This document shows, piece after piece, positions 9,135-27,100 of a stretch of 32,000 nucleotides of DNA (position 1 is the stretch's first letter; every line of letters starts with the position of its first letter). The stretch comes from Halorussus rarus (GTDB lineage: Archaea; Halobacteriota; Halobacteria; Halobacteriales; Haladaptataceae). Below the pieces are notes generated by a model. That model was not told the DNA's origin. It was given only the letters and a program-made list of their open reading frames with translations, and made no database searches. The stretch is from the NCBI RefSeq assembly GCF_003369835.1, contig NZ_QPMJ01000001.1, positions 1,079,589 through 1,111,588 on the forward strand, read 5' to 3'. Both the position numbers and the translations under genes were made by a program.

Positions 9135-9273
9135 TCTACCGGTTCGGATTCGACCTTTTGCTGGTGGCCCGCTGTTAGATTCGGCAAACACTGGGCAGCA
9201 CGCTTTCCCACAATTATAAGACACGCCGAATACTTGCTCGTTGTATGTCATCGCGGGCGGGAATCCCGATACA

Positions 9274-9309
9274 GCGTACTGCCGTCCCGTCCGTTTCGTG
9301 GCAGTACGC
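9274..9309 (+). promoter_or_regulatory. perfect 10-bp stem / 16-nt loop hairpin 15 nt upstream of the pglX ATG
   Basis: GCGTACTGCC (9274-9283) is the exact reverse complement of GGCAGTACGC (9300-9309). The loop is gtcccgtccgtttcgt. It lies in the 190-bp brxC-pglX spacer, downstream of a TTATAA element (9214-9219). Confidence 0.5.
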
Positions 9310-9324
9310 GACCCTCTGATATCC

Positions 9325-13014: not shown

Positions 13015-13020
13015 TTTGAC

Positions 13021-15447
13021 ATGGGAGATCTCGCGGACAGCATTATCACGGAACTCCGGCAAAAGTTCGATCGACACCCGGTCTGGGTGTGGTATGACGC
13101 CCAAGAGAAGTACAAGGGCGTCCTCGACGAGGTCGAAGTGGCCCTCGACGGCGTCACGCTCGCACGATACGATGGCAGCTACTTCGAACTGAAGCGCCGC
13201 CTCTACGAAGAGGATCCGAACTACGAGAAGGACTGGCTGTTCTACATTCCCGAGTCGCGAAACGATGCCGAGTGGTTCCGCGACGTCCACTCACTCGGGC
13301 GACAGTACCGCGTCGGCCAGGACATCGACGACACGCCCGTGACGCAGTTCCTCGTCGAGCACGACGAAGAGATCCCTGACGCGTACGAGGACTGGGGACA
13401 GAACCGCGAGGTTCAGCGCCTGGCCTTCTTCTGCGTTCTCTTCGACACCGCTGGCCCGGCAACCGACGACTGGGTCCGTGCCTACCTCTCGAATCCGGAA
13501 GAGTACCGTGAGACGATCGAAGAAAACGCGATGGCCGACGCCTGGGACGCCCAACTCCGAGAGGAATACGGTGTCACCGCGGGACTCGATCCGAAAGAGC
13601 TAGCGACCCAGCTCCTCTTTGGCGAAGTGGCCAGTCGGGCACCGACATCCCGGTACGACGAACTCGCGGCTGACGACACCCGCGCTGCTGCGGCATTTTG
13701 TGACGAGTGGCAACAATACGCCCCTGCCGAGTTCACACGCTATGCGCAGAAGATCGCGGAGGAATACGACCTTGCGAAGGCCGTCATCGACTCCGACCGC
13801 ATTCACTGGGACGCGACCGCGTTCAAGGGAATCGACATGGGCCTCATCCGGCTGGTGATGAAACGACTTGCCGAAGAGACCTACGCAGACCTCCCCGATA
13901 TCGCGGCAGATTTGCAGCAGACAGTCACTGAGAGACAGGACAGCTTCTGGAGCAACGAGGACCTTGTCGATTGGTCAGTCCCAGTCCTGGCGGTCGAAAC
14001 CCTCCAGCATATCGGAACTATCGACGCCGACGAAGCTAAGACGCTCTCATCGGTGGAACTCGCCCAGAAGTACACGAGTGACGATGGATGGTGGCAAGTC
14101 GATGCGGCCTATCGGCAGTATATCAATGCCACCCAGGAGGCTACCTTCCCATATCCGAACGAAACCACGGTGAAGGAGCGGGTCACTCAACACTACATGT
14201 CCTTCCTCCAAGGAGTGAACCGCCCGCTTGCGGACATTCTGAGTGACGACCCGACCCTCGGGACACCCCAGACTTCGTTCTACGATGAGTTCGCGGACCT
14301 TGACAACGGGACGGCGATCATCATCTGTGACGGGCTTCGCTACGAACTCGCCGAAGCGATCAAACAGAACCTCGGACGGCGGACGGACTTCGAGCAAGAC
14401 CTGAGCGCAGTCAGCGCGGCTCTCCCCTCGATCACCGAAGTTGGGATGGCCGCACACCTACCTGGAGAACTCGGCCTCTCTCTCGAAGATGATGACCTCG
14501 TCGTGACCAGTGGCGGTGAGGAGATGACCGGAAAGTCAGACCGCGTCGACAGACTCAGCGCCGCAGGCTTCGAGGTGGTAGATATGGACGAGGTGAGCAG
14601 CATCTCGTTGGAGAACCTGACGGAGTCTGACCCTGTCCCAAGAGTCGTCTACTCCGGAACGATAGACAAACTCGGTGAGAATCTCGACGACGACGCAGCC
14701 TTCAGCCAGGTGGACTCCCACGTTGACGACGTCGAACGGACTGTCCAGCGACTAAAGCAGGCCGGATACACTCGGTTCGTCATCACGAGCGACCACGGGT
14801 TCCTCTACACGGATCGGTTGTCCGACGACCTCAAAGTCGAATCACCCGACCTTGCTCCGGTCGTCAAACGACGATTCGCAGCCGCTGACAGCGATGCTCC
14901 ACTCGTCGATACGGGCGAATTCATCGAAGTCGATTCCGATGCGCTGTCTGATCTCGGCATCAACGCTCCCGAACTCAAGCTGCTCTTCCCTCGAAGTGTT
15001 GCCTGTTTCAAGGCTCAGGGTGGGAACATGCAGTACTTCCACGGTGGGATTTCGCTCCAAGAACTCCTCGTTCCGTGCCTCACGGTGACCACCGGCGAGA
15101 TAGAAGAAAGCGCGTCGATCAGTTATGACGTCTCGATCCCCGACCCGATCACGAACTCGATAATCTCCATTGAGATTGAGGCCAAGAGTGGACAAGTGGC
15201 ATTCGACCCAGCACCGATACTAGAGATCCGTGCGAACATCGATGACGAGGCGGTGGCGGACCCCGTAACGATGGAAATCTCTCCGGGGACCAATAGCGAA
15301 CGTATTCGTCTCAAACAGGGGGCAATCTCTGGAGAGAGCTCGGTCCAGTTCGAAGTTATTGACACCGACACCCGAGAAACGATCACGCGGAAAACGGTGG
15401 AACTTGATCTACTCTTTGGAGACGATGATATGGGATTTGACGTGTAA
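13021..15447 (+). CDS. pglZ: BREX alkaline-phosphatase-fold protein PglZ
   Basis: 808-codon ORF starting 6 nt after the pglX stop. It contains AIIICDGLRYELAE and FVITSDHGFLY, the two hallmark PglZ-domain segments (metal-binding D and DHG). Confidence 0.9.
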   Translation: MGDLADSIITELRQKFDRHPVWVWYDAQEKYKGVLDEVEVALDGVTLARYDGSYFELKRRLYEEDPNYEKDWLFYIPESRNDAEWFRDVHSLGRQYRVGQDIDDTPVTQFLVEHDEEIPDAYEDWGQNREVQRLAFFCVLFDTAGPATDDWVRAYLSNPEEYRETIEENAMADAWDAQLREEYGVTAGLDPKELATQLLFGEVASRAPTSRYDELAADDTRAAAAFCDEWQQYAPAEFTRYAQKIAEEYDLAKAVIDSDRIHWDATAFKGIDMGLIRLVMKRLAEETYADLPDIAADLQQTVTERQDSFWSNEDLVDWSVPVLAVETLQHIGTIDADEAKTLSSVELAQKYTSDDGWWQVDAAYRQYINATQEATFPYPNETTVKERVTQHYMSFLQGVNRPLADILSDDPTLGTPQTSFYDEFADLDNGTAIIICDGLRYELAEAIKQNLGRRTDFEQDLSAVSAALPSITEVGMAAHLPGELGLSLEDDDLVVTSGGEEMTGKSDRVDRLSAAGFEVVDMDEVSSISLENLTESDPVPRVVYSGTIDKLGENLDDDAAFSQVDSHVDDVERTVQRLKQAGYTRFVITSDHGFLYTDRLSDDLKVESPDLAPVVKRRFAAADSDAPLVDTGEFIEVDSDALSDLGINAPELKLLFPRSVACFKAQGGNMQYFHGGISLQELLVPCLTVTTGEIEESASISYDVSIPDPITNSIISIEIEAKSGQVAFDPAPILEIRANIDDEAVADPVTMEISPGTNSERIRLKQGAISGESSVQFEVIDTDTRETITRKTVELDLLFGDDDMGFDV

Positions 15448-15590
15448 CCTACAATCCCCTTGCATGTGTTAGAATAGATACCATTATATCCTGCCACCAG
15501 TCAATGATTGCTGAGAGTATGGATATAGGTACTACTAAATGAAAGGATGAAAAGCTAAAAATAGTGATCAGGGAGTTCCCCTGTAAGCAA

Positions 15591-15630
15591 AGGGCATAAG
15601 AATGTGGTGTTCCCACATTTTGTAGGCCCT
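15591..15630 (+). other. two-tier hairpin in the pglZ-brxL spacer
   Basis: Inner stem AATGTGG (15601-15607) / CCACATT (15613-15619) with a 5-nt loop. Outer stem AGGGC (15591-15595) / GCCCT (15626-15630). It sits in an AT-rich, non-coding-looking 390-bp gap. Confidence 0.35.
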
Positions 15631-15777
15631 GAGCCGGCTTCTAACTAAACGGATAGCGGTTAGTATGTGCTCGCTGTCAGTATTGTTGTGTATTAGCGAT
15701 AGCGCTTGAATCCTCAACCGAAGAGACTCTGCCGCCCGTATCTGAACTGAAGCCAATAGATGAGTATCGGTAACCGG

Positions 15778-15812
15778 TATTGGTGTTCCGCCTGGGATGA
15801 CCGACACCAATA
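15778..15812. promoter_or_regulatory. 9-bp perfect inverted repeat (TATTGGTGT-N17-ACACCAATA) 28 nt upstream of the brxL ATG
   Basis: 15778-15786 is the exact reverse complement of 15804-15812. Its position just upstream of the brxL start is compatible with an operator overlapping a promoter, or with a 5' RNA hairpin. Confidence 0.4.
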
Positions 15813-15839
15813 TGCCCCCGGCTCTGTTTCTTGAATATA

Positions 15840-17867
15840 ATGACTACTGAGGACGTCGATCAGAAAGCTCTCGACGTCTTTCCCGGACGCGTCGTCCGGA
15901 AGGATCTTGTTCAAGATATCAAGTCGGGAGTAAACGTCCCCACCTATGTTCTCGAATACCTCATCGGACAATACTGTGCCACAGACGATGAGGAATCGCT
16001 TGAGGAGGGGCTCGAAAAAGTCAAACAGATTCTGTCGAAGCACTACGTTCGCCCTGATGAGGCCGAGTACGTCAAAAGCGAAGTACGTGAACGTGGTCGA
16101 TACCGAGTCATCGACAAAGTAACCGTCAGACTCGACGAGCAGCAGGACGCCTACATCGGCTCGTTCGTCAACCTCGGGCTCAACGACGTCGAAATTAACG
16201 AACACCTCGTCAGCAAGCACCCGAAGCTTCTGGGCGGCGGTGTCTGGGCCATCATCGATCTGGAATACCTTCCCGACAACGCGAATAGTCCCAAGAGCCT
16301 GTTCGGCATCGACTCGTTCAAACCGATACAGGTATCGAATCTTGACCTGGACCAGTTGAAAGACCGTCGACAAGAATTCACGCGTGACGAGTGGATGGAC
16401 CTTCTCCTCCAGAGCGTCGGGTACGACCCTACCGCGTTCAGCGACCGCGAGAAACTGCTATTTTTGACTCGGTGTCTTCCCCTCGTCGAATCCAACTACA
16501 ATTACGTCGAGCTGGGCCCCCGCGGAACTGGGAAGAGTTATTTATATCGGGAAATCAGCCCGCACTCGATTCTCATCTCGGGTGGAAAAACCACCGTTGC
16601 GAAGCTCTTTCTGAACCTCAACACGGGGCGGATTGGACTCGTTGGCCGTTGGGATGTCGTTGCATTCGACGAAGTCGGTGGCCTCCAGTTCAGCGACTCT
16701 GAAGCGGTCCAGATGCTCAAAGACTACATGGAGTCTGGAAGCTTCTCTCGCGGCACTGAAGAACTCACAGCGCAGGCCTCGATGGTCTACGTCGGAAACA
16801 TCGATCTGGATGTCGAAGGCGTTCTCAAGAGCTCCCACCTCTTCGAGCCGTTCCCAGAAGATATGCAGGACCTCGCTCTCATCGATCGCTTCCACTACTA
16901 TCTCCCTGGCTGGGAAGTCCCGAAGATGCGCTCCGAATTCTTCGGCGACCAGTTCGGATTCATTGTGGATTACTTCGCCGAGTTTGTGCGCGAACTGCGG
17001 AAGGAATCTTACGGTGATGCGATCAACGAGGAGTTCGCGTTCGGAGACCACCTGAACCAACGAGACGAAAGGGCCGTCCGGAAGACGGTATCTGGCCTGA
17101 TCAAACTACTCCATCCGCATGGGGAATACACGAAAGAGGAACTCCGCGAATATCTTGAATTCGCTATGGAGGGGCGACGTCGTGTCAAGGAGCAGTTGAA
17201 ACGGATGGGTGGAATGGAGTATCGGGCAGTCGAATTCTCCTATCTGGACTTAGAAACGAAAGAAGAACTCTACGTTCAGGTTCCCGAGGAGGCCGATGAG
17301 GCGCTTATTCCGCCCGGTACACAGCAAGCAGGTACTGTCTACACCATCGGCGAAAGCGAAGGTCGTCACGCTCCGTTCCGTATCGAAACTCAAACGCTTC
17401 CCGGTTCCGGGAAGACGAACATCTCTGGAACCCCGGGGAAAAAGATGAAAGAGTCGTTCGAGACTGCGTGCGACTACCTTCAGGCGAATATGCGAGAACT
17501 CCGCCGCGATGAGACGCTGGATGAGTACAATATCAATGTACAGGTACTCAATCCAGCAGACGCGAGCGAAGGTGGTGAGACAAGTGTCGGATTACTTGTT
17601 GGGATCGTCTCCGGCATTCTCGACCGACCGGTCCGCCCACAAGCCGTAGTACTAGGTGCTATGAGTTTGATGGGAGAACTGGTTGCCGTGAGTTCATTAG
17701 TGGATAAACTCCAGTTAGCCGCTGATTCAGGAGCAAAGACGGTGTTACTCCCCGCGAAAAATAAAGAGGACCTAGCGAAGATACCCGATGAGCTCTTGGA
17801 TCAACTTCAACTCGTATTTTACACCAATCCGCTTGATGCAGCTAGTAAAGCGATAGAGTTGGAGTAA
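15840..17867 (+). CDS. brxL: BREX Lon-like protease/ATPase BrxL
   Basis: The ORF is open from TTG 15831; the first ATG is at 15840. The N-terminus FPGRVVRKDLV is typical of BrxL. Walker A is GPRGTGKSY (16515-16541). The C-terminal ~180 aa is a Lon-protease-like domain (VGLLVGIVSGIL...GAMSLMGEL...AKTVLLPAKN). Confidence 0.9.
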   Translation: MTTEDVDQKALDVFPGRVVRKDLVQDIKSGVNVPTYVLEYLIGQYCATDDEESLEEGLEKVKQILSKHYVRPDEAEYVKSEVRERGRYRVIDKVTVRLDEQQDAYIGSFVNLGLNDVEINEHLVSKHPKLLGGGVWAIIDLEYLPDNANSPKSLFGIDSFKPIQVSNLDLDQLKDRRQEFTRDEWMDLLLQSVGYDPTAFSDREKLLFLTRCLPLVESNYNYVELGPRGTGKSYLYREISPHSILISGGKTTVAKLFLNLNTGRIGLVGRWDVVAFDEVGGLQFSDSEAVQMLKDYMESGSFSRGTEELTAQASMVYVGNIDLDVEGVLKSSHLFEPFPEDMQDLALIDRFHYYLPGWEVPKMRSEFFGDQFGFIVDYFAEFVRELRKESYGDAINEEFAFGDHLNQRDERAVRKTVSGLIKLLHPHGEYTKEELREYLEFAMEGRRRVKEQLKRMGGMEYRAVEFSYLDLETKEELYVQVPEEADEALIPPGTQQAGTVYTIGESEGRHAPFRIETQTLPGSGKTNISGTPGKKMKESFETACDYLQANMRELRRDETLDEYNINVQVLNPADASEGGETSVGLLVGIVSGILDRPVRPQAVVLGAMSLMGELVAVSSLVDKLQLAADSGAKTVLLPAKNKEDLAKIPDELLDQLQLVFYTNPLDAASKAIELE

Positions 17868-17888: not shown

Positions 17889-18119
17889 TTATTCGTCTAA
17901 TTCCCAAAGAAGGGAATTTCCGACTTTTTTGCTTCTAATCTCCCCATCCTCTTCGATCGATTTTAATTTCAGATAGGCGGTTCGGCGATCACAGCCAACA
18001 TAATCCGAAATATCTGTAGTTCCACTTGGTCCGAGTTCTGCTAAGGCTTCCAGAAAATCCTGGTGAGGGTATTCCTCAGTAAACTTCCCACTTTTTTCGT
18101 CCCGGTCCCGGTCGCCCAT
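17889..18119 (-). CDS. small winged-helix-turn-helix DNA-binding protein (putative transcriptional regulator)
   Basis: 76-codon ORF with ATG at 18119. GPSGTTDISDYVGCDRRTAYLKLKSIEEDGEIRSKKVGNSLLWELDE fits helix-turn-helix plus wing (KKVGxxxxW). It is convergent with brxL and divergent from the RAMP operon across a repeat-bearing spacer. Confidence 0.7.
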   Translation of the reverse strand: MGDRDRDEKSGKFTEEYPHQDFLEALAELGPSGTTDISDYVGCDRRTAYLKLKSIEEDGEIRSKKVGNSLLWELDE

Positions 18120-18165: not shown

Positions 18166-18243
18166 CCATTAGTCGAGTGTCCAAAGGTTTATACCATTAG
18201 TCGAGTGTCCAAAGGTTTATACCATTAGACGAGCGACTAATGG
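18166..18243. repeat. two exact abutting 28-bp direct repeats followed by a related 22-bp palindrome (operator-like)
   Basis: CCATTAGTCGAGTGTCCAAAGGTTTATA occurs at 18166-18193 and again at 18194-18221. It is followed by CCATTAGACG-AG-CGACTAATGG (18222-18243), whose right arm is the reverse complement of CCATTAGTCG. The 10-mer CCATTAG(T/A)CG therefore occurs three times direct and once inverted. Confidence 0.9.
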
Positions 18244-18331
18244 ATGTGAACTCAGCCGTTGGGCACTGATCGACAGAAGTGCCCGGGTGTTGCAGCACCC
18301 AGGCTGGGTTCCGAATACCGTCCGAGAACCC

Positions 18332-18868
18332 ATGAAGAAATTAAATCCAGAAACACAAGAAGGCGACGACAGATCGCTAATTGAAGAAATAAATCAAATA
18401 AATTATATTTCGCTCGGGGAAGGGGCCGCGACGTGTCAAGCGTGCGGATCTCCTCTTCACGAGGGGGATTCGGTTGTTGCGTACGTGTTTCGCCCGGCTG
18501 GAGAGCTGCTTTTTCAGACTGGTTACGTGGTTTGCGGTGACGACGAACACGAACTTCCGAAGGAGTACCCGTTGGGTGTGCGGGAGTTGCTCGTCGAGGG
18601 GCGTGTTGGGTGGTGTTCGGATGGGGCGACGCAGTCGTCGTGGCCGGTGTTGCTTGCGCCTGAAGTGGTCGGTGTGAGCGCGGCAGCGACGAAGTCACTA
18701 CGTCTGATTCCGGATGGTGGTAGCACGGGGTCGAACGTTGCCTCCGGTGTTGAGGAGCGGGAGTCCGCCAAGGCATCGGAGAAGGTGTCTGTTGGTGAGA
18801 CGCGTCGTCGAGCTGACGGAGCGGATGGTGACGTGGTTCGCGGATTGTTCTGGGGTGAGCAGCGATGA
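18332..18868 (+). CDS. hypothetical protein, first gene of the RAMP operon (single CxxC plus C-x4-H; possible Zn-binding)
   Basis: The ORF is open from GTG 18287; the first ATG is at 18332. It contains CQAC (18434-18445), then VVCGDDEH. Its stop overlaps the next start (ATGA, 18865-18868). The first ~90 nt are conspicuously AT-rich compared with the rest. Confidence 0.55.
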   Translation: MKKLNPETQEGDDRSLIEEINQINYISLGEGAATCQACGSPLHEGDSVVAYVFRPAGELLFQTGYVVCGDDEHELPKEYPLGVRELLVEGRVGWCSDGATQSSWPVLLAPEVVGVSAAATKSLRLIPDGGSTGSNVASGVEERESAKASEKVSVGETRRRADGADGDVVRGLFWGEQR

Positions 18869-19830
18869 CGTCGGGCCTCGTGGATTCGCATCTTGATGTC
18901 GAGTTGGATGTGCCGCGGTCGGTGGAGGAGATGTTGCTGCCGGATGTGTACGTTGGGCTCGAAATCGACCTGCTGTCTCCAGGGGACGGCATCGTCACGG
19001 ATCGGCATCATGCGTCGGCGGATCGGTATGAGTCGGATGATCCGATGAATCAGATTGAAGGACAGATAAGCCCATTCACCCTGTCAGGCTGGCTGCGACA
19101 CGGGTGTGAGGAGGTCGTCCAGGTCGCTGGTGCGACGGCGTGTCACCCTGGTGAACCGAATGCGGACTACATGCGTGCGGAGACGTATGAGCGTGACTTG
19201 GAGTCCGGGTACCACGAGAAGGGAACTTGTCTGGATGAATACGATGATGGGTGTGTCGTCTACGACTTGTTCGGTGGGTTCGGTGCGCAGCCGGGGAAGT
19301 TGCTGCGCCGTCCGGTGTCGTTCTCCCCGATTCGGAGACAGGTGGATGTCCTGGACGGAGAGGCGGAAGCGCACTACCGACAGATCTCGAACCAAGTGCG
19401 GTCGCGGAACGAGGAGGACGGTGGGCAGCCGCTCCGCCAGGCGGATCGTGATGTGCTCGGGAACGTCGAGGGAACGTGGAAGTTGACGCTCCGGGAACTG
19501 AAGCCGGAGTTCGTCGGGTTACTCTTGGAAGCTGTGTCGTTCCTTGATGCGCATAGTGACCAGTTCGAGTTCCAGCTCGGCGGCGCACGGAATTTTGGGG
19601 CTGGTATCGCTGATGTGTGGGTGATAAATCCGCTGTACAGCGACCAGGAGGTGCGTCGCGTGTTTGACCGTGCGAAGGCGGTGACGTCTGCGATGGAGGA
19701 GAAGGATGAGGTGTGGCGGTCGGAGTGCCGGCCGGAGTTCGTCAGGGCGTTGCAGGCGCGGGTTGCGCAGCGTGATGGTGATGTGTCGTTCCCTGGTGCT
19801 GGTGACGGGGCAGGGGGTGGTTCGGCATGA
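18865..19830 (+). CDS. Cas7-like RAMP protein (Csm3/Cmr4/Csf2-like motif pattern)
   Basis: 321-codon ORF. It has an N-terminal beta-strand-like YVGLEIDLLSPG, then SGWLRHG (19084-19104; compare the S-x-x-K/R-G-x-x-R RAMP motif). A Cys/His-bearing insertion (ACHPGE...GTCLDEYDDGC) ends in DLFGGFG (19264-19284). A C-terminal glycine-rich loop reads LGGARNFGAG-IADVWV (19576-19605). Confidence 0.6.
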   Translation: MTSGLVDSHLDVELDVPRSVEEMLLPDVYVGLEIDLLSPGDGIVTDRHHASADRYESDDPMNQIEGQISPFTLSGWLRHGCEEVVQVAGATACHPGEPNADYMRAETYERDLESGYHEKGTCLDEYDDGCVVYDLFGGFGAQPGKLLRRPVSFSPIRRQVDVLDGEAEAHYRQISNQVRSRNEEDGGQPLRQADRDVLGNVEGTWKLTLRELKPEFVGLLLEAVSFLDAHSDQFEFQLGGARNFGAGIADVWVINPLYSDQEVRRVFDRAKAVTSAMEEKDEVWRSECRPEFVRALQARVAQRDGDVSFPGAGDGAGGGSA

Positions 19831-20162
19831 CTAGTGGGCGTGATGGTCGGGATGCGGGCGATGATGATTCGGGAAAGATGGATCAGGACGGTGCGGAACT
19901 GGACAAATTAGCCGAGCCAGCGACTGGTCTGCGGACTGCTCAAGAACGGGCGGCATCGAAGGAGTCGATTGTTGCGTCTGGTGGTGGGGAGGCGGGTGCT
20001 GCGAGTGATGGGTCCTCAGCGACTGGTGGCTCTGATACTGACGGTCTCGATGAGTTGATGGAGCCGTCGACGGGGCTCCGCACAGCCCAGGAACAAGAGA
20101 CGGAGACATCGACTGGTGATGAGGATGGTGAAGCTGGCCGGGCGGGTGATCGGGGTGCGTGA
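19827..20162 (+). CDS. small acidic Gly/Ser/Asp-rich protein with a duplicated L-D-x-L-x-E-P-x-T-G-L-R-T-A-Q-E motif
   Basis: 111-codon ORF. Its start overlaps the upstream stop (ATGA, 19827-19830). The motif copies lie at 19899-19946 and 20046-20093. They are identical in peptide over TGLRTAQE but differ at the third position in 7 of 8 codons, which argues for translation and purifying selection. Confidence 0.6.
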   Translation: MTSGRDGRDAGDDDSGKMDQDGAELDKLAEPATGLRTAQERAASKESIVASGGGEAGAASDGSSATGGSDTDGLDELMEPSTGLRTAQEQETETSTGDEDGEAGRAGDRGA

Positions 20163-20976
20163 TGCGATTTCGGATTCTGACGTAGAGGGTGACGCCGATG
20201 CGGTGGACCCGTTGGTGGCGGCGTATCGGCACGATGTGCATAAGCTGCGGGCGCGGGCGCATAGTCATGCAGTGGATTGGGTTGACGGTGTGCGGGTGAA
20301 TGAGCCGGTGCCGGACGGGGCGGACGGGGATGCGGCGTTGTTGAGTCGGCCGCGCGGTGACCCGGAGCAGACGTTGGATGCGCACGGGTCGTGGCGGCGC
20401 GTGTCGCTGCTGACCGGGGAGGTCGTATCGAGTGATTCGGTTGAGTCGCTGGACGGGCTGCTCGTGGCAGATGACGCCGAGGAGTTGCACGCGACGTGGT
20501 TGTCGGCGTCATTGCCGGCCGGGTTCAATGAGTCGCCGTACTACCCGTACACGTCGGTGAAGTACCACACGCTCTTGACGGCGGTGCTGTTGGATAATTA
20601 CCGGGGAGGTCACGAGTTCGGCGACCTGTTCCTCGCAGTTGAGGCTCCGGACACGGAGTCTGTAACCCCGCATCGAACAGTACTCTCGACGGGTGGGGTA
20701 TCGTTGGCTGTGACTGGGGAGCCGGGGGATCGGCCGGCAGCGCGGTTGGGTGACGCGCCAGCACGGTCGTTCGCAGACACGTGGGCGCGGCTCCCGGCGC
20801 TCCCGTTTGACGTGGCCGGGTCACGTCGGTGGCGCGTGCTGGATTCGCAGTTGCGGCGGATCCGTTCGTGGTCGGTGGCGCTACAGTTTATCGAGGACTA
20901 CGTCGCGGCGTTCGCACCGGCGCAGTGCGCTGGGCATGGTCGCCGTGGCCGTCGAGGTGGAGGTGAGGGTCGGTGA
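20116..20976 (+). CDS. hypothetical protein with an Arg/Gly-rich C-terminal tail; start uncertain
   Basis: The ORF is open from GTG 20116. Alternative starts are ATG 20119, ATG 20125 and GTG 20155; the last overlaps the upstream stop by 8 nt. It contains PYTSVKYHTLLTAVLLDNYRGGHEFGDLF and ends in GHGRRGRRGGGEGR (20932-20973). Its stop overlaps the next start (GTGA, 20973-20976). Confidence 0.5.
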   Translation: MMRMVKLAGRVIGVRDAISDSDVEGDADAVDPLVAAYRHDVHKLRARAHSHAVDWVDGVRVNEPVPDGADGDAALLSRPRGDPEQTLDAHGSWRRVSLLTGEVVSSDSVESLDGLLVADDAEELHATWLSASLPAGFNESPYYPYTSVKYHTLLTAVLLDNYRGGHEFGDLFLAVEAPDTESVTPHRTVLSTGGVSLAVTGEPGDRPAARLGDAPARSFADTWARLPALPFDVAGSRRWRVLDSQLRRIRSWSVALQFIEDYVAAFAPAQCAGHGRRGRRGGGEGR

Positions 20977-21905
20977 CGCGGCTCCAACAGGTTCTCTTCG
21001 AGTTGGAGTCGCCGTACTCCGGGCATCCGTATTTCGTGTCGGGTAACGCCGTGTTCAATGCGGTGGCGCGGCGTGTCGGTGCTGCGACGCGTGGGGCACT
21101 GCATGTGAGTCACGGCGTGTTTCTCCCGGGTGAGTACGGTGAGTACCCGGCAGGCGCGTCGCAGGATGGGTATGCGGGGAAGCTCGGGTTGTCGTTGCCG
21201 GACGTGGAGTCGTACGAGGACTTGTTCGTGTTTCGGGACGCGGCGCAGCGGTGGCTTCTGGATTCACGGCCGCGGGATGCGCATAACGTACACCCGTTGC
21301 AAACTCATGGTGGCCGTGTTGCGTTCGACGATTCGTGTTGGTTCGGGCGGCCGGCGGAGATGCGGGATCACCGCCGGTCCGTGTCGTGGTTCCTGCACTG
21401 CTACTTGCACGCCGGGCGTGACGGTGTCGTACCGGTCGCGGAGGATGTACTGGAGGGGATTCGTGTTGGTGGGTGGCGGAATTACGGGTTCGGGGATGTG
21501 TCCGTGGTGGAGACACAACTCGTGGATCTCGATGCGTTGGATTACGCTGGGGTGCGAGGGGCTGACGAGTTGCAGTTGGAGCTTGTGACGCCGTTCGTGC
21601 TGGTGAGTGAGGCTCCGAACGCGGATTCGCAGTCGGTGCCGTGGTGGTGGGACGTACCTACTGGCGGGTTGCGTCGCGGTGAAACGCGCCTCGTGAACGG
21701 TGACGAGTCGTACGCTGTGGCGACGGTTGATCACGGGCAGGTCGTCGAGTACGTCGGAGATGACGCGGGGAGAACGGCGAAGAACGGTGTGACGCGGGTT
21801 GGAACGCATTCTCGGTTCGGGTTCGGGGAGTTTCGGCTGCGCCCGAGTGACGCGGACCGGGTGCCGGAGCGTGCGGCGGCCGCGTCGGACGGAGGTGGTG
21901 TGTGA
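20973..21905 (+). CDS. Cas5-like (Csm4/Cmr3/Csf3-like) RAMP protein with two glycine-rich loops
   Basis: 310-codon ORF starting at GTG. The N-terminus VLFELESPY...VSGNAVFNAV resembles the RAMP beta1/helix1 pattern. Two G-rich loops, each closing a roughly 150-aa half, read IRVGGWRNYGFGDVSV (21462-21494) and RVGTHSRFGFGEFRL (21795-21827). This is the G-x-x-x-x-x-G-F-G loop characteristic of RAMPs. Confidence 0.55.
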   Translation: MTRLQQVLFELESPYSGHPYFVSGNAVFNAVARRVGAATRGALHVSHGVFLPGEYGEYPAGASQDGYAGKLGLSLPDVESYEDLFVFRDAAQRWLLDSRPRDAHNVHPLQTHGGRVAFDDSCWFGRPAEMRDHRRSVSWFLHCYLHAGRDGVVPVAEDVLEGIRVGGWRNYGFGDVSVVETQLVDLDALDYAGVRGADELQLELVTPFVLVSEAPNADSQSVPWWWDVPTGGLRRGETRLVNGDESYAVATVDHGQVVEYVGDDAGRTAKNGVTRVGTHSRFGFGEFRLRPSDADRVPERAAAASDGGGV

Positions 21906-22567
21906 TGGTGTTGGAGCAAGTGGCGTTCGATATTGAGACGACCGGGTTCGATGTTGATGACGAGGTGACGACGGTTGGGTTTGCGGTGCCGATGGGTGTA
22001 CGCGTGTTCCTGCAGACTGGCGAGCGGGACGCGTCGGGTATTGAGTCGCGTGTTGACTCAGCAGTGCCGGAGACGCTCGTGCGAGTATCTACGCACGCGT
22101 CTGAACGTGAGTTGCTGGTCGCGGTATCGGAGTTCGTTGCCGAGCGGTTCCGTGATGGTGACGTGTTGCTCGTGGCGTACAATGGGGAGCGGTGGAACGG
22201 CGGGTTCGATCTACCGTTCCTGCGAACGCGGTACGCGAAGTGCGAGTTGGCGTGGCCGTTCGATGTGCCGTACGCGGACGTGATGCCGCTCGTCACCGAC
22301 CGGTTCAACACGACTGTTGATGGTGGCGAGAACGGTGATCTCGTGACGGCGTACGACGTGTTGTGCGACGGATCGCACGGTGATCTCGACCCGTTCACGG
22401 ACAGCAAAGAGGCTGTGACATCGTTCGAGGACGGGCGGTTTGCGGAGCTCGTGTTGCATAACGTGGCGGATGTGCTGCGGACACGGGCGCTCGGCCGCGT
22501 TGCGGAGCGGTACTGTTCGAAATCCGAGTTCAAAGTGAAGTCGCTGACGCCGACGAGGTCGATCTGA
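21905..22567 (+). CDS. DEDD-type 3'-5' exonuclease (RNase H-like fold, PolB-exonuclease/COG3359-like)
   Basis: The ATG at 21905 shares its A with the upstream TGA (TGATG). Exo I is FDIETTG (D 21929-21931, E 21935-21937). Exo II-like is LVAYNGERWNGGFDLPFL. Exo III-like is LHNVAD (H-x3-D). Length is 220 aa. Confidence 0.7.
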   Translation: MVLEQVAFDIETTGFDVDDEVTTVGFAVPMGVRVFLQTGERDASGIESRVDSAVPETLVRVSTHASERELLVAVSEFVAERFRDGDVLLVAYNGERWNGGFDLPFLRTRYAKCELAWPFDVPYADVMPLVTDRFNTTVDGGENGDLVTAYDVLCDGSHGDLDPFTDSKEAVTSFEDGRFAELVLHNVADVLRTRALGRVAERYCSKSEFKVKSLTPTRSI

Positions 22568-22758: not shown

Positions 22759-23826
22759 ATGACAGAAACAGAGTCACACAATCACGACGACGCGACGAGG
22801 ATGAGCGAATCGAGCGGTGAACGAACGGAGCGGTTGACGCCTGAGGAGTGCCACGAGACGGTTGATCCGAAGACGCGGGAAGCGGTGCTTGACGAGTACG
22901 CCCATCGCTGCCAGGTCTGCGGGCGACGCGGACCGGAGAAAGGCGGGTTAGCGACGCTGCATGTCCACCATATCGAACGCGACCCGGACGGGATGGGTGA
23001 GCATGATATGGAGAATCTGACGTTGCTGTGCCGGTCGTGCCACAGTTGGTTCCATCAACAGAGCACGCCTGACGACGCGCCCGTCGAGATCACGGAGGAA
23101 GACCAGAGCGTGTTGCTTCCGCAGGACATCGAGATCCTACGGTTCTTAGCAGATGCGGGTCCGGCGCGAACGGGTGATATTGCGTCCGGGGTGCCGACTG
23201 ACTTGACGGTGTCAGCGGTTCGTGAGCGGTTGTGGGTGCTGATGGGACTCGATAACTTGGTCGAAGCCCGCGACCGGCAGATCGTCGATAAGGACGTCGA
23301 GACCGGGGAATGGGGACTCACCGAACAGATCGAGAACTCCGCTCGCGGGCACATCCCGGACGACCCACAACTGTTGCTCCAGCGGATGGAGGACGAGAAA
23401 GTCCGACAGGCACTCGACCGCGGGTGTGATCGCAGTGACGTCATCAACGTGTTCGATGTCTCGCGGCGGACGACGTTCAACAAGCAGAAGCGAGCCTGTG
23501 CGTACGACTTCCCGTTGGCCGCGTTCAACCGCGGGGGACGGCCGACCGACAGCGAGCGGTCGGAACGCAGTCCGGGCACGACCGACACAGTAGAGGACGA
23601 CGGTGATGAACAGCAGCGACTTGACGCAGTCCCCGAACAGGACACAGACTCGTTGGGCCGGACAGAAACGTGGGGGACGACTGAGACCGCCCCCGAAGCG
23701 CGGCCCTCGAATGAGAGCGTGGAGGGTACTGATCAAGCGGTGAGTGAGAACGGTTCCGAGGAGGAGTTGCGTGTGCACCTACAGCAAGCAATTGAGGCGC
23801 TACAGGAAGTGAACTCGGAGTTGTAG
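22759..23826 (+). CDS. HNH endonuclease fused to a wHTH-like domain and an acidic C-terminal tail
   Basis: 355-codon ORF. CQVCGRRG...LHVHHIERD...NLTLLCRSCHSWFH is the full HNH/zinc-finger signature (CxxC ... HH ... N ... CxxC-H). It is followed by DIEILRFLADAGPARTGDIASGV...RERLWVLMGLDNLVEA (wHTH-like). Confidence 0.85.
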   Translation: MTETESHNHDDATRMSESSGERTERLTPEECHETVDPKTREAVLDEYAHRCQVCGRRGPEKGGLATLHVHHIERDPDGMGEHDMENLTLLCRSCHSWFHQQSTPDDAPVEITEEDQSVLLPQDIEILRFLADAGPARTGDIASGVPTDLTVSAVRERLWVLMGLDNLVEARDRQIVDKDVETGEWGLTEQIENSARGHIPDDPQLLLQRMEDEKVRQALDRGCDRSDVINVFDVSRRTTFNKQKRACAYDFPLAAFNRGGRPTDSERSERSPGTTDTVEDDGDEQQRLDAVPEQDTDSLGRTETWGTTETAPEARPSNESVEGTDQAVSENGSEEELRVHLQQAIEALQEVNSEL

Positions 23827-24132: not shown

Positions 24133-27100
24133 ATGCCCGGAATTCCCCCAAATCACCCACAAACGCCGCGTGAAGCAAGAGAGCTCGTAGAGAAACGCCG
24201 GCAGACTCTCCTAGAGGGATACGAGAGTGACAACGAGGTCATTCAGGATCTCTTCCATAATTACGACCGGGATGTCAAGCGGGACCTTGACACTCCAGCA
24301 CAGGTGATTCCTGAGCTGTTGCAGAATGCTGATGACGTAAAGGAGTGTGAGACAGTCGAGATCCTAATCTCAGAAGATGAACTCGTTGTTCGGAACGATG
24401 GCCGACCACTTCTGGAAGATGAGTTCGAAGCCATATGTCACATCGGACAGAGTACAAAGCAGGAGCCGGGGTATATTGGCCACTTTGGCCGTGGGTTCAA
24501 GTCTGTTTTCAGCGTCTCGGATCACCCGCAGGTTCGTTCGGGATTCCTACGCTTCGGCTTCAAACGAGACCGATGCGTTCTACCCCTACATCTCGTAGAT
24601 GAGACGGCCGTTGATGAGATTAAGTACGCACCTGCGACCGAGGTTAGGTTGCCTTTCACTGACCTTTCGGAGTATGATCGGTCACAGCTCATGGGGCAGA
24701 TTGAGTCTCTCCCTCGATTGATGCCGTATCTCCGGAACGTCTCGAAAATCAGTGTCGTTGATCACGGCGAACGGACGACCTATCGACGGGAAGAAACGAC
24801 CAGGGGAGAGCTTACTGAGGTTGAGATTTACAAGAATGAAATTCTCTATGAGAGACGTCATATTTTCGGTATTGAGGAGGTACCACCGGAGGCTGAATTT
24901 TCCGAGCTAGTCAAGCATCGTGCTTTAGAAAACGAGGAGGAGTTCCGAGATGAACCGGTGCCGATCAAGATTTCGTTTCCCGTAGATGAGGATGGCAATC
25001 CAATCTCTGGAGACGAACCCAGTCGGCTGTTCAATTTTTTCCCCACAGAAACGGAACTGGATATTCCGTTCGATATTCAAGCCGATTTTCTTCTTGACTC
25101 TGACCGTTCAAGCCTGCATAATACCAAGAGCCCGTACAACCAGTGGATTTTCGGCCTCGTAAGTGCAGTCTATGAAAAGGCAGTTGAATATTATTTAGAG
25201 CGGGATTCACCCACAACCACTTTTTTGGAACTTGTTCCAACTCGAAGAACACTTGATTCCCATCTTAAACGCATTCAGGAAGATATCTTGGATGTCCTGA
25301 GGGAGCACGAATGCATTCTAGGTCAGGATGGGGAATACCACCTCCCAGAGCAGATCATTGTGCCCGATTCCCGACTGGAAGGGCTGCTCTCTGAGTCAGA
25401 TGTTCAAGAACTGTTCGGAGAGGCTACCAATTATCCTGCAGACTCGCTGACGCAGCGGTGTCTCAATGATCTCGTCGGGTTGGGTTTGATTGATGAGCTT
25501 ACGATTGCCAGTCTTGCCCAAGTTGAGCAGGATAGTAATGTTTACCGCGAAAAGTCAACTTCCGAGTTGTTACGTTTGGCTGCCCTTTTCAACGAATTGT
25601 GGGAAGACACATATCGGGATAAACGATCTTACAACGATGAACGGAGAGAGTTCCTTAGTGCAGTTAAGCAAATTCCGCTGGTTCCACTCCAAACCGGTGC
25701 TGTAGTCAGCAGTAACGACACGGACTCGGATCCGGTTCTTCCGCCCGATAGCGGGGGAGACGAGTATGAGATTTTCACTGATCGGATTACACTAGTAGAC
25801 CTGACTTTTGACGAGTCGGATGGCAATGGTAAGGTTGAGGATCACAAAGCAGTCGCAGCTGATGCTCGATCCTTTTTTGAGAACGCACTAGAGCTCTCGG
25901 TCGTTGAAGATGACTACATCATCACCGAGGTAATCGCAGAAGCTTTCAAAAATCCAAGCGCCGAGACTGATTCGACGTTGGATGCATTTCTAGAGTTTGT
26001 TATCAGTGACAAACACCGACGGAAGGTTGCGCGTAAGAAGAACGCAATTCGACTGAGGGTCAAATCGTCCAGCAGCGACGAGTCAGTATATAAAAAGCCA
26101 TCCGAGCTCTATCTCCCAAAGGCCTATGGCTTGGACTACGATCTGGAGATACTTCTTGAGGATATCGACTCTGCACAGTTCGTGACACCATCATACCGGG
26201 AGTTAGGGAACTCGCTGTCACCGTGGTCGAGTTTCTTGACGAAGGCGGGGGTGAGAGACAAACTCGAAGTAACGGAGGAAGGTGCGAAAACTCGTGAAAG
26301 ATTCCGTGATAAGGACGATTTAGAGACGGAACTTGAGTCGTGTGGTGACAGATCGACTAATATTCCGCAAGCACCGAGACACTCGGGGGATACCTACGAT
26401 ACGTGGCTGAGGGGGTATCGGTACGCGCTCTCGGATTACGAAATCAGCGACACATTCGAAGACTTGCTGGACATCATCCCAGAGAAAGGGAGAGAATCGG
26501 GAGCACAGGCGTGGGAGCTGGCAACGATGCTTGCGTCGTGCTGGGACTACTACGAGGATCGTCTGAATAAGGAACTCTACTACACAGCCCAGTATGGGAA
26601 AGGAAATCCGTTCCGCACCAAATCTCAGGGGACACAATGCCCGTCCAAATTCGCTAATCGGATTCGAAACACAGCATGGTGTCCAACAAAAACAGGGACA
26701 ATAAGCCCCCCATCAGTGTTGCTGGTTGAGATACCTCGAACACAGGGACAACCTGACGGGCGGTATCTCAATAATGATCTCCCGTTTTCGGAAGCGAATT
26801 ATAATGGTCTGAATATCAGCACCCGGTTAGATCCGTCGTCTGTCTTGAAATTACTCACACAGGCCCCCACGGTCTGGAGTGATGGAGAACCGAGTGAAAT
26901 ACGAACTGCAGTTAACGATCAGCTTGATCAGTTCAAAGCTGGTCTGGCCGATTGTTCGGACGACGAGGCTGAAAGGTTGCTCTCGGAACTCCGGAAGGCT
27001 CCGTTTCTATACGTCGAGGCAGCCGAGACACAATTCCGAACGTCGACACAAGTGGTGCTTGAGGGGATCAGTCTCGGTGACCAATTTGTCTCAATATCAA

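What the first reader, a model, noticed from the sequence alone, without database searches (positions are those of the whole stretch)
19827..20162. Small disordered protein with a duplicated peptide motif conserved only at the amino-acid level
ELDKLAEPATGLRTAQE (19899-19946) and GLDELMEPSTGLRTAQE (20046-20093) are embedded in Gly/Ser/Asp/Glu-rich low-complexity sequence. Over TGLRTAQE the two copies use ACT GGT CTG CGG ACT GCT CAA GAA versus ACG GGG CTC CGC ACA GCC CAG GAA. Seven of eight codons differ, all synonymously. This is not a recent DNA duplication. It is a peptide motif kept by selection. The two copies could serve as bivalent docking sites, protease cleavage sites or modification sites, analogous to substrates or adaptors attached to some RAMP effectors. 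I know of no described Cas small subunit that looks like this.
Basis: seen in the sequence. Interest (0 to 1): 0.65.

Follow-up and report, generated by a model that had tools for sequence, protein, structure and literature searches.

The report
Disordered two-motif protein in HRAMP operon
A small, acidic, unstructured protein with two copies of a conserved 17-residue peptide is a real but optional gene inside a haloarchaeal CRISPR-derived (HRAMP) defence operon, where it probably works as a two-handed docking adaptor whose partner is still unknown.

Summary
ORF C (19827-20162, +) encodes a 111-aa protein with no aromatic residues. It carries two 17-aa motif copies with 13/17 residues identical. 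Over TGLRTAQE, 7 of 8 codons differ, all synonymously.

The gene is real. Only its own frame shows purifying selection, and the motifs are more constrained than the linkers. Its start and stop overlap the neighbouring genes behind Shine-Dalgarno-like sequences.

The operon is HRAMP, the array-less, type III-derived haloarchaeal RAMP system. It has a Csm3-like Cas7, a Cmr3-like Cas5, DUF8574, a DEDDh exonuclease and an HNH nuclease. It lies between a BREX system and a Tiamat gene.

Two-motif ORF C occurs in at least nine genera. It is optional: 14 of 50 related operons have it and 31 have no motif. The motif is portable. It occurs once fused to the N-terminus of DUF8574 in two genomes and once on the C-terminus of DUF8112 in one genome.

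Best reading: a bivalent short-linear-motif adaptor that docks on HRAMP core subunits. The partner and role are inferred, not shown.

Side observation: many HRAMP operons, but not this one, carry a conserved repeated 22-nt element just upstream of the cas5-like gene.

The parts
19827..20162 (+). ORF C: 111-aa acidic, predicted disordered protein with two motif copies.
   Evidence: Translation. Ten homologues at 48-99% identity. dN/dS is 0.22-0.46. It is the only frame with both a low pN/pS and no stop codons. Charge-hydropathy analysis predicts disorder.
19896..19946 (+). Motif copy 1, ELDKLAEPATGLRTAQE (residues 24-40).
   Evidence: Motif HMM score 28.9 bits.
20043..20093 (+). Motif copy 2, GLDELMEPSTGLRTAQE (residues 73-89).
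   Evidence: Motif HMM score 33.3 bits.
19813..19830 (+). B/C junction. Shine-Dalgarno-like GGGGGTGG (19813-19820), then a 6-nt spacer, then ATGA in which the ORF C start overlaps the B stop.
   Evidence: The same SD-like sequence plus ATGA/GTGA overlap occurs in all 15 loci examined.
20144..20162 (+). C/D junction. SD-like GGGTGATC (20144-20151) and GTGcgTGA, in which the likely D start (GTG, 20155) overlaps the ORF C stop (20160-20162).
   Evidence: An ATGnnTGA overlap is seen at this junction in most of the other loci. D homologues start at the equivalent position.
18287..18868 (+). ORF A, DUF8112 protein with a Cys-rich N-terminal part. The likely start is ATG 18332.
   Evidence: Pfam PF26417 is recorded on the orthologues. 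In L030 its C-terminal tail carries one motif copy.
18865..19830 (+). ORF B, HRAMP Cas7-like RAMP (Csm3-like).
   Evidence: 10 of 21 homologues hit Pfam RAMPs, best E 4e-5. 10 of 21 hit PADLOC Csm3 (PDLC01407); the best Csm3 E-value is 4.6e-6, from PDLC01016. It has a G-rich loop, GGARNFGAG.
20155..20976 (+). ORF D, DUF8574 protein, the conserved uncharacterised HRAMP component. It has an invariant N-terminal YRHDxHK.
   Evidence: Pfam PF26506 is recorded on the homologues. Alignment. AlphaFold2 model, mean pLDDT 72. The only structural lead is Csm1/Cas10 at E=0.46. In L050 and L051 one motif copy is fused to its N-terminus.
20973..21905 (+). ORF E, HRAMP Cas5-like RAMP (Cmr3-like).
   Evidence: 21 of 21 homologues hit PADLOC Cmr3, best E 1.1e-6. 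AlphaFold2 model, mean pLDDT 67. Foldseek matches Cas6 (4ilm, probability 0.98-1.0) and subunits of Csm complexes.
21902..22567 (+). ORF F, DEDDh / RNase H-like exonuclease.
   Evidence: Pfam RNase_H_2 and DNA_pol_B_exo1. PADLOC DEDDh.
22759..23826 (+). HNH nuclease with an acidic C-terminal tail.
   Evidence: Pfam HNH, E 3.6e-11. It is conserved downstream in most related operons.

Best explanation
ORF C is a translated, intrinsically disordered, acidic accessory subunit of an HRAMP module, the haloarchaeal, array-less, type III-derived RAMP system.

Nearly all of its sequence information lies in two copies of a short linear motif of about 17 residues. The family consensus is [GE]-L-[DN]-E-[LV]-x-[EP]-[PV]-x-[ST]-x-[LI]-R-[TSP]-[AV]-Q-E. 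The copies are separated by a variable acidic, Gly/Ser-rich linker of 33-58 residues.

The proposed mechanism is as follows. Each motif folds on binding to a surface of a structured HRAMP core subunit. The two-motif protein therefore holds two such surfaces together, or occupies two equivalent sites. Possible partners are two Cas7-like backbone subunits, or the DUF8574 protein (D) and a RAMP.

Shown: the gene is real and under purifying selection, the motif is the constrained part, the motif is specific to this operon slot, and it is portable onto proteins D and A.

Inferred: that the motif is a docking peptide, that its partner is an HRAMP subunit (D is the most suggestive candidate), and that bivalency matters.
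For: Coding and selection:
- dN/dS is 0.22-0.46 among four orthologues. Pooled pN/pS is 0.16 in the motifs and 0.41 in the rest.
- Only the +0 frame combines a low pN/pS (0.28-0.38) with no stop codons.
- SD-like sequences and overlapping start/stop codons at both junctions are conserved in 15 loci.

The motif is the functional unit:
- In 79 loci from Halobacteria, a motif HMM scores 19 bits or more only on the coding strand inside the operon. The best antisense hit scores 15.4.
- The sites lie between genes B and D, except one on the C-terminal tail of A.
- The linkers differ in length and sequence while the motifs persist.
- The window's ORF C has no aromatic residues and 10% hydrophobic residues, most of them inside the motifs.

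The duplication is old and selected:
- In the window, L002 and L008 most identical residues use different codons. In L008, 16/17 residues are identical and 12 of those 16 use different codons.
- Six further family clusters recovered by a profile search are 91-111 aa, and each has two copies.

Portability:
- A single copy is fused in frame to the N-terminus of D in L050 and L051.
- A single copy lies on the C-terminal tail of A in L030.
- Degenerate copies lie on the N-terminus of D in L013 and P0153.

Context: the operon is HRAMP (PMC8730458).

Weak lead for D as the partner: the alignment columns that best track motif presence lie in a loop of D, TGEPGDRPAARLG (p=3e-6, not corrected for phylogeny). 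That loop also differs between motif classes.
Against: - No binding was tested.
- The gene is dispensable. 31 of 50 related operons and all 21 operons of the second clade have no motif, and close relatives differ in having it.
- Sequence-unrelated acidic modules occupy the same slot in some loci: L036 and L044, L025 and L033. Bulk acidity or disorder, rather than the specific motif, could therefore be part of the function.
- In the Halorubrum loci and L022 the two copies are nearly identical in DNA. Some of the within-genome similarity may therefore come from recent duplication or gene conversion.
- The association with D is confounded by phylogeny. Motif-less operons such as L007, L009 and L034 carry the same D loop.
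Confidence: 0.45

Rival explanations
1. Acidic autoinhibitor or nucleic-acid mimic. ORF C, or the equivalent acidic tail on D, sits in the nucleic-acid-binding groove of the RAMP complex or of an associated nuclease (DEDDh, HNH, or a possible HD site in D). It keeps the nuclease off until a trigger displaces it. The motifs would serve as anchors.
For: - The protein is strongly acidic: 26-48 D+E against 2-11 K+R across homologues.
- Unrelated acidic repeat modules occupy the same slot in L036 and L044. An acidic ORF lies between D and E in L067.
- In the fused forms the motif lies 25-35 residues upstream of D's invariant YRHDxHK.
Against: - Haloarchaeal proteins are acidic in general, so charge alone says little.
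- The constrained part is a specific hydrophobic/polar motif, not the acidic stretches.
- Most operons work without it.
Confidence: 0.2
2. Recruitment of a host factor. The motif would be a docking peptide for a cellular protein outside the operon, for example a replication, repair, transcription or proteolysis factor. It would be carried by whichever HRAMP protein is convenient.
For: The motif appears on three different carriers: stand-alone C, the N-terminus of D and the C-terminus of A. This is the pattern of client-recruiting tails such as the SSB C-terminus (general knowledge).
Against: - Over the 79 loci, each with up to 8 kb of flank on either side, the motif HMM finds nothing above background outside the operon slot.
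- The motif changes markedly between lineages (LRTAQE, LDPAQ, TDPVQDP). That fits co-evolution with a fast-evolving operon partner better than with a conserved host hub.
- It does not resemble the PCNA-interacting box (my recollection; not tested).
Confidence: 0.12
3. Protease substrate. The two motifs would be cleavage sites, as in type III-E Craspase, where the TPR-CHAT protease cuts Csx30.
For: Two identical sites in a disordered chain would suit a processing substrate. In the window and in L001 a Lon-like BrxL lies just upstream.
Against: No protease gene is conserved with the operon. In L003 the operon sits next to other genes, and BrxL belongs to BREX. No caspase, CHAT, Lon or SAVED-protease domain was found in A-F or HNH.
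Confidence: 0.05
4. Post-translational modification sites. The conserved Ser/Thr in the middle of each motif would be phosphorylated or otherwise modified to switch the system.
For: A Ser/Thr at motif positions 9-10 is kept in nearly all variants.
Against: No kinase or transferase is linked to the operon. The conserved hydrophobic positions are not needed for a simple modification site.
Confidence: 0.05
5. Not a functional protein. The ORF would be a chance open frame in GC-rich spacer DNA, and the repeat would reflect a DNA or RNA element.
For: Long spurious ORFs are common here, for example the antisense ORFs at 19831-20490 and 19940-20512. GC at codon position 3 is lower in ORF C (0.51) than in its neighbours (0.70-0.76).
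Against: - Synonymous differences dominate between orthologues and between the two copies.
- Antisense and shifted frames carry stop codons or have pN/pS above 1.
- Coupling signals at both ends are conserved.
- The peptide motif persists across genera where the DNA has diverged.
Confidence: 0.03

Closest known systems
HRAMP (haloarchaeal RAMP) system, Makarova et al. 2019 FEMS Microbiol Lett fnz079, as summarised in PMC8730458 and PMC12669027
   Same: It is found in Halobacteria. It has highly diverged Cas7 and Cas5 homologues closest to type III, no CRISPR array and no adaptation genes. It is associated with HNH and other nucleases and with uncharacterised proteins.
   Different: The two reviews I could read mention no small disordered protein with a duplicated motif. 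The primary paper is not in the library, so I cannot say whether it noted this gene. ORF C is present in only a minority of HRAMP operons.
Cas11 small subunits (Csm2, Cmr5, Cse2) of class 1 effector complexes
   Same: It is a small protein encoded inside the effector operon next to the Cas7 and candidate large-subunit genes. A multivalent contact along the complex is conceivable.
   Different: Cas11 proteins are folded helical bundles with basic nucleic-acid-binding faces (established knowledge). ORF C is acidic, has no aromatic residues and is predicted disordered. No sequence family matches it.
Short linear motifs on disordered tails that dock on partner proteins, e.g. the bacterial SSB C-terminal tail
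   Same: A conserved short hydrophobic/acidic peptide is embedded in a variable, acidic, Gly/Ser-rich disordered chain. The motif is portable between carrier proteins.
   Different: There is no sequence relationship. Here the motif is duplicated within one chain and restricted to one operon. The partner is unknown.
Csx30, the substrate of the type III-E Craspase (Cas7-11 with the TPR-CHAT protease)
   Same: It is a non-Cas accessory protein attached to a type III-derived RAMP effector.
   Different: No protease is linked to HRAMP. ORF C has no folded domain to release. No similarity was found.
Csx26 of subtype III-G, proposed as a hypothetical Cas11 counterpart (PMC12669027, Fig. 2 legend)
   Same: It is an unrelated small protein sitting in the small-subunit position of a derived type III system.
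   Different: In that paper Csx26 is modelled as a multi-copy subunit of the III-G effector complex. ORF C is predicted disordered.

Membership tests
HRAMP system (the operon) | Restricted to Halobacteria. | tested here: met
   The named homologues of E and D, and 79 related genomic loci, come from Halobacteria genera. The closest are Halorussus halobius (95% identity) and Halosimplex salinum (94% by tblastn). The window's own source is not given.
HRAMP system (the operon) | Highly diverged Cas7 homologue, closest to type III. | tested here: met
   For B, 10 of 21 homologues hit Pfam RAMPs (best E 4e-5) and 10 of 21 hit PADLOC Csm3 model PDLC01407. The best Csm3 E-value, 4.6e-6, is from model PDLC01016. 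The window copy itself is below threshold.
HRAMP system (the operon) | Highly diverged Cas5 homologue. | tested here: met
   For E, 21 of 21 homologues hit PADLOC Cmr3 (best E 1.1e-6; the window copy scores 0.0029). The predicted fold matches Cas6 and Csm complex subunits.
HRAMP system (the operon) | No CRISPR array and no adaptation module. | tested here: met
   The 32-kb window has no array-like repeats, no Rfam CRISPR-DR match and no Cas1 or Cas2 hit.
HRAMP system (the operon) | Associated nucleases (HNH, PD-(D/E)xK and others) and conserved uncharacterised proteins. | tested here: met
   A DEDDh exonuclease and an HNH nuclease lie downstream. DUF8112 and DUF8574 proteins are conserved in the operon.
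HRAMP system (the operon) | Identity with the protein families defined in the 2019 paper. | not testable with these tools
   The primary paper and its profiles are not held.
Cas11 small subunit (ORF C) | Compact all-helical fold. | tested here: not met
   The charge-hydropathy test predicts disorder. There are no aromatic residues and only 10% hydrophobic residues. No structure prediction of C was run.
Cas11 small subunit (ORF C) | Sequence or profile similarity to Csm2, Cmr5, Cse2 or other Cas11 families. | tested here: not met
   No hit in Pfam, NCBIfam or PADLOC.
Cas11 small subunit (ORF C) | Universal presence in the effector operons of its subtype. | tested here: not met
   It is absent from 31 of 50 type-1 operons and from all 21 type-2 operons.
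Craspase-type protease substrate (ORF C) | A dedicated protease encoded with the RAMP effector. | tested here: not met
   There is no protease domain in A-F or HNH. The adjacent BrxL belongs to BREX and is not conserved next to the operon.
Short-linear-motif docking peptide (ORF C motifs) | A short conserved island inside a variable disordered region, under stronger constraint than its flanks. | tested here: met
   Pooled pN/pS is 0.16 in the motifs and 0.41 in the flanks. Linkers vary in length (33-58 aa) and sequence.
Short-linear-motif docking peptide (ORF C motifs) | Demonstrated binding to a defined partner surface. | not testable with these tools
   No multimer prediction or experiment was available. 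There are only indirect leads: fusion to D and A, and association with a D loop.

The most novel reading that the evidence does not exclude
ORF C would be a disordered, bivalent functional replacement for the missing Cas11 small subunit. Its two docking peptides would clamp the DUF8574 protein, possibly a Cas10 HD-domain remnant, onto the Cas7-like backbone, or bridge two backbone subunits. This would set the stoichiometry or activity state of an HRAMP effector. It would be the first CRISPR-derived complex organised by a short-linear-motif protein instead of a folded small subunit.
Probability: 0.15. Interest if true: 0.65.

Novelty: new variant of a known kind. Interest (0 to 1): 0.45.

Why it matters
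HRAMP is one of the least understood CRISPR derivatives. The 2025 classification states that it is unclear whether it uses any RNA guide, and that if it does it could rank as a new CRISPR-Cas type (PMC12669027, supplementary note).

Any conserved component offers a handle for biochemistry. A two-motif disordered protein that is translationally coupled to the Cas7-like and DUF8574 genes, and sometimes fused to DUF8574, predicts a physical contact. That contact can be tested directly by pull-down or modelling, and the protein could serve as a natural affinity handle for purifying the complex.

Because the gene has been lost many times, matched operons with and without it are natural experiments on what it adds.

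The finding is modest on its own. The gene is accessory, it is confined to Halobacteria, and its role is inferred.

Tried and rejected
- **Family searches.** Pfam, NCBIfam and PADLOC scans of ORF C found nothing.
- **Sequence searches against solved structures.** Searches with B, E and D, as single sequences or as profiles, gave no significant hit. One call failed because of a wrong frame.
- **CRISPR array.** I looked for an array or other RNA partner in the window. Tandem-repeat, direct-repeat and Rfam searches found none. The only repeat near the operon is a 28-nt tandem upstream of gene A with no spacers.
- **Viral origin or mimicry.** Neither ORF C nor the Cas5-like protein has relatives in the viral contig collection.
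- **Motif elsewhere.** A motif HMM run over all six frames of 82 loci and over 259 fetched proteins found no copy outside the operon slot. One 868-aa hit in the representative search (P0257) is an unrelated repeat protein.
- **Antisense ORFs.** The long antisense ORFs at 19831-20490 and 19940-20512 were rejected as genes. They have stop codons in relatives or a pN/pS of about 1 or more.
- **D as a Cas10 remnant.** This is only a lead. Foldseek's best hit is Csm1 at E=0.46 and probability 0.2, with no profile hit.
- **Finding the partner by association.** Column-by-column association of motif presence with B, D and E points to a loop of D, but phylogeny confounds it.
- **The D-E repeat as a structured RNA.** Folding z-scores are not significant and Rfam finds nothing.
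- **Literature.** The primary HRAMP paper and the Asgard ARAMP paper could not be read.
Full report
**1. The observation**

The + strand ORF at 19827-20162 encodes a 111-aa protein. The two motif copies lie at 19896-19946 (ELDKLAEPATGLRTAQE) and 20043-20093 (GLDELMEPSTGLRTAQE).

The copies share 13/17 residues but only 32/51 nucleotides. Eleven of the 13 identical residues use different codons. Over TGLRTAQE, 7 of 8 codons differ, all synonymously, exactly as quoted. No shuffle of the protein out of 20,000 reached a 13/17 self-match; the best was 11.

The protein has no aromatic residues and 10% hydrophobic residues. It falls well on the disordered side of the charge-hydropathy boundary. Seven of its 11 hydrophobic residues sit inside the two motifs.

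**2. Is it a gene?**

Ten homologues were found. Most are 105-111 aa; one is a 78-aa internal-deletion variant, P0009. Nine keep both motifs, including one at about 50% identity. P0009 has lost half of the first copy.

Among the window and three orthologues, dN/dS is 0.22-0.46. Pooled pN/pS is 0.16 in the motifs and 0.41 elsewhere. Of the six frames, only the annotated one has both a low pN/pS (0.28-0.38) and no stop codons. The long antisense ORFs listed fail this test.

The start ATG overlaps the stop of the upstream gene (ATGA) and lies 6 nt after GGGGGTGG. The stop overlaps a GTG at 20155, which corresponds to the start of the downstream gene in its homologues. That GTG lies behind GGGTGATC. 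The same junction design occurs in all 15 loci examined. The gene therefore looks translationally coupled to both neighbours; this is inferred from sequence.

**3. What the operon is**

The genes on the + strand are:
- A, 18287-18868, a DUF8112 protein
- B, 18865-19830
- C, the finding
- D, 20155-20976, a DUF8574 protein
- E, 20973-21905
- F, 21902-22567, a DEDDh / RNase H-like exonuclease
- an HNH nuclease, 22759-23826

The window copies of B and E barely register in family scans, but their homologues do. Ten of 21 B homologues hit Pfam RAMPs (best E 4e-5) and PADLOC Csm3 (best E 4.6e-6). All 21 E homologues hit PADLOC Cmr3 (best E 1.1e-6). An AlphaFold2 model of E (mean pLDDT 67) matches Cas6 with probability 0.98-1.0 and TM-scores of 0.33-0.43, and matches subunits of Csm complexes.

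D has no sequence relatives outside its own family. Its model (mean pLDDT 72) gives only a non-significant best match to Csm1/Cas10.

The 32-kb window has no CRISPR array, no cas1 or cas2, and no Rfam family at gathering threshold.

This is the published HRAMP system. Haloarchaeal RAMP is an array-less CRISPR derivative with diverged Cas5 and Cas7 homologues closest to type III, plus nucleases and uncharacterised proteins (PMC8730458 section 6; PMC12669027 Fig. 1 legend and supplementary note). The primary paper is not held.

Upstream lies a complete BREX system: BrxA, BrxB, BrxC, PglX, PglZ and BrxL. Downstream lies a Tiamat TmtA gene. The setting is a defence island.

**4. Distribution of ORF C and its motif**

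A scan of one genome per species returned 79 loci encoding a relative of E, all from Halobacteria. I mapped A-F and HNH on each locus. I then searched all six frames with an HMM built from 20 motif instances.

Scores of 19 bits or more occur only on the coding strand inside the operon. The best antisense hit is 15.4. Nothing inside the operons scores between 7.5 and 19.

Counting the window and removing duplicates gives 50 operons of the clade that carries F and/or HNH. Among them:
- 14 have a stand-alone two-motif ORF C between B and D
- 4 have one motif
- 1 has a degenerate copy
- 31 have none

All 21 operons of a second clade, which lacks F and HNH, have none.

The two-motif form occurs in Halorussus, Halosimplex, Halogeometricum, Natrinema, Salinadaptatus, Halorubrum, Salinibaculum, Salinarchaeum and Halovenus. 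Its presence is patchy within tight clusters, which points to repeated loss.

A profile search of 1.84 billion representative proteins found 12 proteins at E of 0.001 or lower. One is an unrelated repeat protein (P0257). The other 11 are short (34-111 aa). The six new full-length members, of 91-111 aa, each have two copies. No relative exists in the viral contig collection.

**5. Anatomy across the family**

Stand-alone ORF C homologues are 79-177 aa. They have 26-48 acidic and 2-11 basic residues, and the start-to-start spacing of the motifs is 33-58 residues. Linkers are not alignable between genera; the motifs are.

The motif classes are:
- L-D-E-L-x-E-P-x-T-x-L-R-T-A-Q-E (the window type)
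- ...L-R-S-[AV]-Q
- ...A-L-D-P-A-Q
- ...T-T-D-P-V-Q-D-P (Halorubrum)
- ...[IL]-R-P-[AVI]

Within a genome the two copies belong to the same class. In the window, L002 and L008 they do so despite near-saturated synonymous divergence. In L008, 16/17 residues are identical and 12 of those 16 use different codons. In L019, L022, L028 and L032 the DNA of the two copies is also similar, so recent duplication or gene conversion may contribute there.

**6. Portability**

- In L050 (Natronomonas gomsonensis) and L051 (Haloarchaeobius sp.) a single motif is fused in frame to the N-terminus of D, giving a 311-aa protein.
- In L030 (Halovalidus salilacus) a single motif sits on the C-terminal tail of A.
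- Degenerate copies (ESLQPPSESIRP) precede the D core in L013 and P0153.
- Other loci fill the B-D slot with unrelated acidic modules. In L036 and L044 it is a fourfold GGxPSEIGEENEDFPSKI repeat fused to D. L025 and L033 have a different ORF.

**7. Mechanism**

The data fit a short linear motif in a disordered chain: a constrained island, variable flanks, hydrophobic residues confined to the island, and portability between carriers.

I therefore propose that each motif docks on a structured HRAMP subunit, and that the stand-alone protein is bivalent.

The partner is not established. The fusions to D, the translational coupling to B and D, and the association of motif presence and class with a D loop point to D and/or the RAMPs. 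The D loop is TGEPGDRPAARLG (p=3e-6, uncorrected for phylogeny). These are leads only.

The rivals are an acidic autoinhibitor or nucleic-acid mimic, recruitment of a host factor, a protease substrate, a modification site, and a non-functional ORF. The last is nearly excluded. The protease idea lacks a conserved protease.

**8. Comparison and novelty**

The operon is a new member of the known HRAMP kind. ORF C is not a Cas11. It fails on predicted fold, on sequence similarity and on universality.

The reviews available to me do not mention it. Pfam has families for A and D but none for C. I could not check the 2019 paper. I rate it as a new variant within a known kind, of moderate interest.

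**9. Side observation: the D-E repeat**

In 25 HRAMP loci the D and E genes are separated by 180-600 nt. In the window they overlap. This gap carries 1-5 copies of a strongly conserved unit of about 22 nt, gaGGaCACTGGAAACrGGGTGTGTgg.

An nhmmer model of the unit finds every hit of 13 bits or more on the coding strand in that gap. The best hit elsewhere is 11.2 bits. The units are conserved at every position across genera, while the sequence between them varies.

No frame shows purifying selection, with pN/pS of 0.65-1.2. The frame left open differs between loci. Yet the unit spacings (33, 36, 45, 48, 51, 69, 93, 99) and the indels between relatives (3, 6, 12, 12, 36) are almost all multiples of three. 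I cannot explain this.

Rfam and folding tests are negative. HRAMP is described as array-less with an unknown RNA requirement (PMC12669027 supplement), so this element deserves RNA-level experiments.

Noticed in passing
Not in the window. L019:3432-3640, L013:7644-7950, L046:7680-7930, L021:7819-7910 and 21 further loci, always between genes D and E.: A conserved unit of about 22 nt (gaGGaCACTGGAAACrGGGTGTGTgg) is repeated 1-5 times on the coding strand just upstream of the cas5-like gene in 25 HRAMP operons. It is highly specific: every nhmmer hit of 13 bits or more is there. It shows no coding signature, yet the spacings and indels are nearly all multiples of 3. It contains TTGAAAC / CTGGAAAC, which resembles archaeal crRNA 5' handles (my recollection). 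It is a candidate RNA or DNA component of a system described as array-less.
   Followed up: partly
window 18166-18249 and 17889-18119 (-): A 28-nt tandem repeat (CCATTAGTCGAGTGTCCAAAGGTTTATA, two exact copies and one degenerate copy, no spacers) lies between the start of HRAMP gene A and a divergent 76-aa gene. That gene looks like a small helix-turn-helix protein and is also present in L001. Together they may be an operator and a repressor for the operon.
   Followed up: no
window 20155-20976 (protein D, DUF8574): The invariant YRHDxHK lies a few residues from the true N-terminus, and further invariant His, Asp and Asn residues follow. Foldseek's only leads are Csm1/Cas10 chains (E 0.46). This is reminiscent of the N-terminal permuted HD domain of Cas10, but it is not significant.
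   Followed up: partly
window 19800-19830, 20130-20162, 20950-20976, 21880-21905, and the same junctions in the loci: Proteins B, C, D and E all end in Gly-Gly-Asp/Glu-type tails. These tails are Shine-Dalgarno-like GGnGGnGA sequences for the next gene, whose ATGA/GTGA start overlaps the stop. Part of the apparent protein conservation at the C-termini is therefore a translation signal.
   Followed up: partly
L001:9375-12468 (CP040678.1, a 3.2-Mb chromosome): This is a degraded HRAMP operon next to BREX. A is intact, only the last 50 codons of B remain, ORF C is intact, a D/E remnant of 84 codons follows, and F and HNH are intact. ORF C has survived a deletion that removed both RAMP genes.
   Followed up: no
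L036:6808-8001 and L044; L067:7534-7998; L025 and L033 B-D gaps: The junction slots of HRAMP operons hold other, sequence-unrelated acidic modules. In L036 and L044 a fourfold GGxPSEIGEENEDFPSKI repeat is fused to the N-terminus of D. L067 has an acidic DDSNSDVDV-repeat ORF between D and E. L025 and L033 have a different ORF. These slots appear hypervariable.
   Followed up: partly
L056-L082 (21 loci): A second HRAMP clade, with E about 46-51% identical to the window, has B, D and E tightly packed with no ORF C, no DEDDh and no HNH homologue. Its downstream genes were not examined. Two of these loci lie on plasmids (Natrinema sp. 74 p1; Natrinema gelatinilyticum).
   Followed up: no
window 4126-17867 and 24133-29163: The HRAMP operon sits in a defence island. 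A complete BREX system lies upstream (BrxA, BrxB, BrxC, PglX, PglZ, BrxL) and a 1676-aa Tiamat TmtA gene lies downstream. At 12-1082 there is a protein resembling an RT-associated PD-(D/E)xK nuclease (PADLOC RTasPDDEXK, E 1.7e-9).
   Followed up: partly
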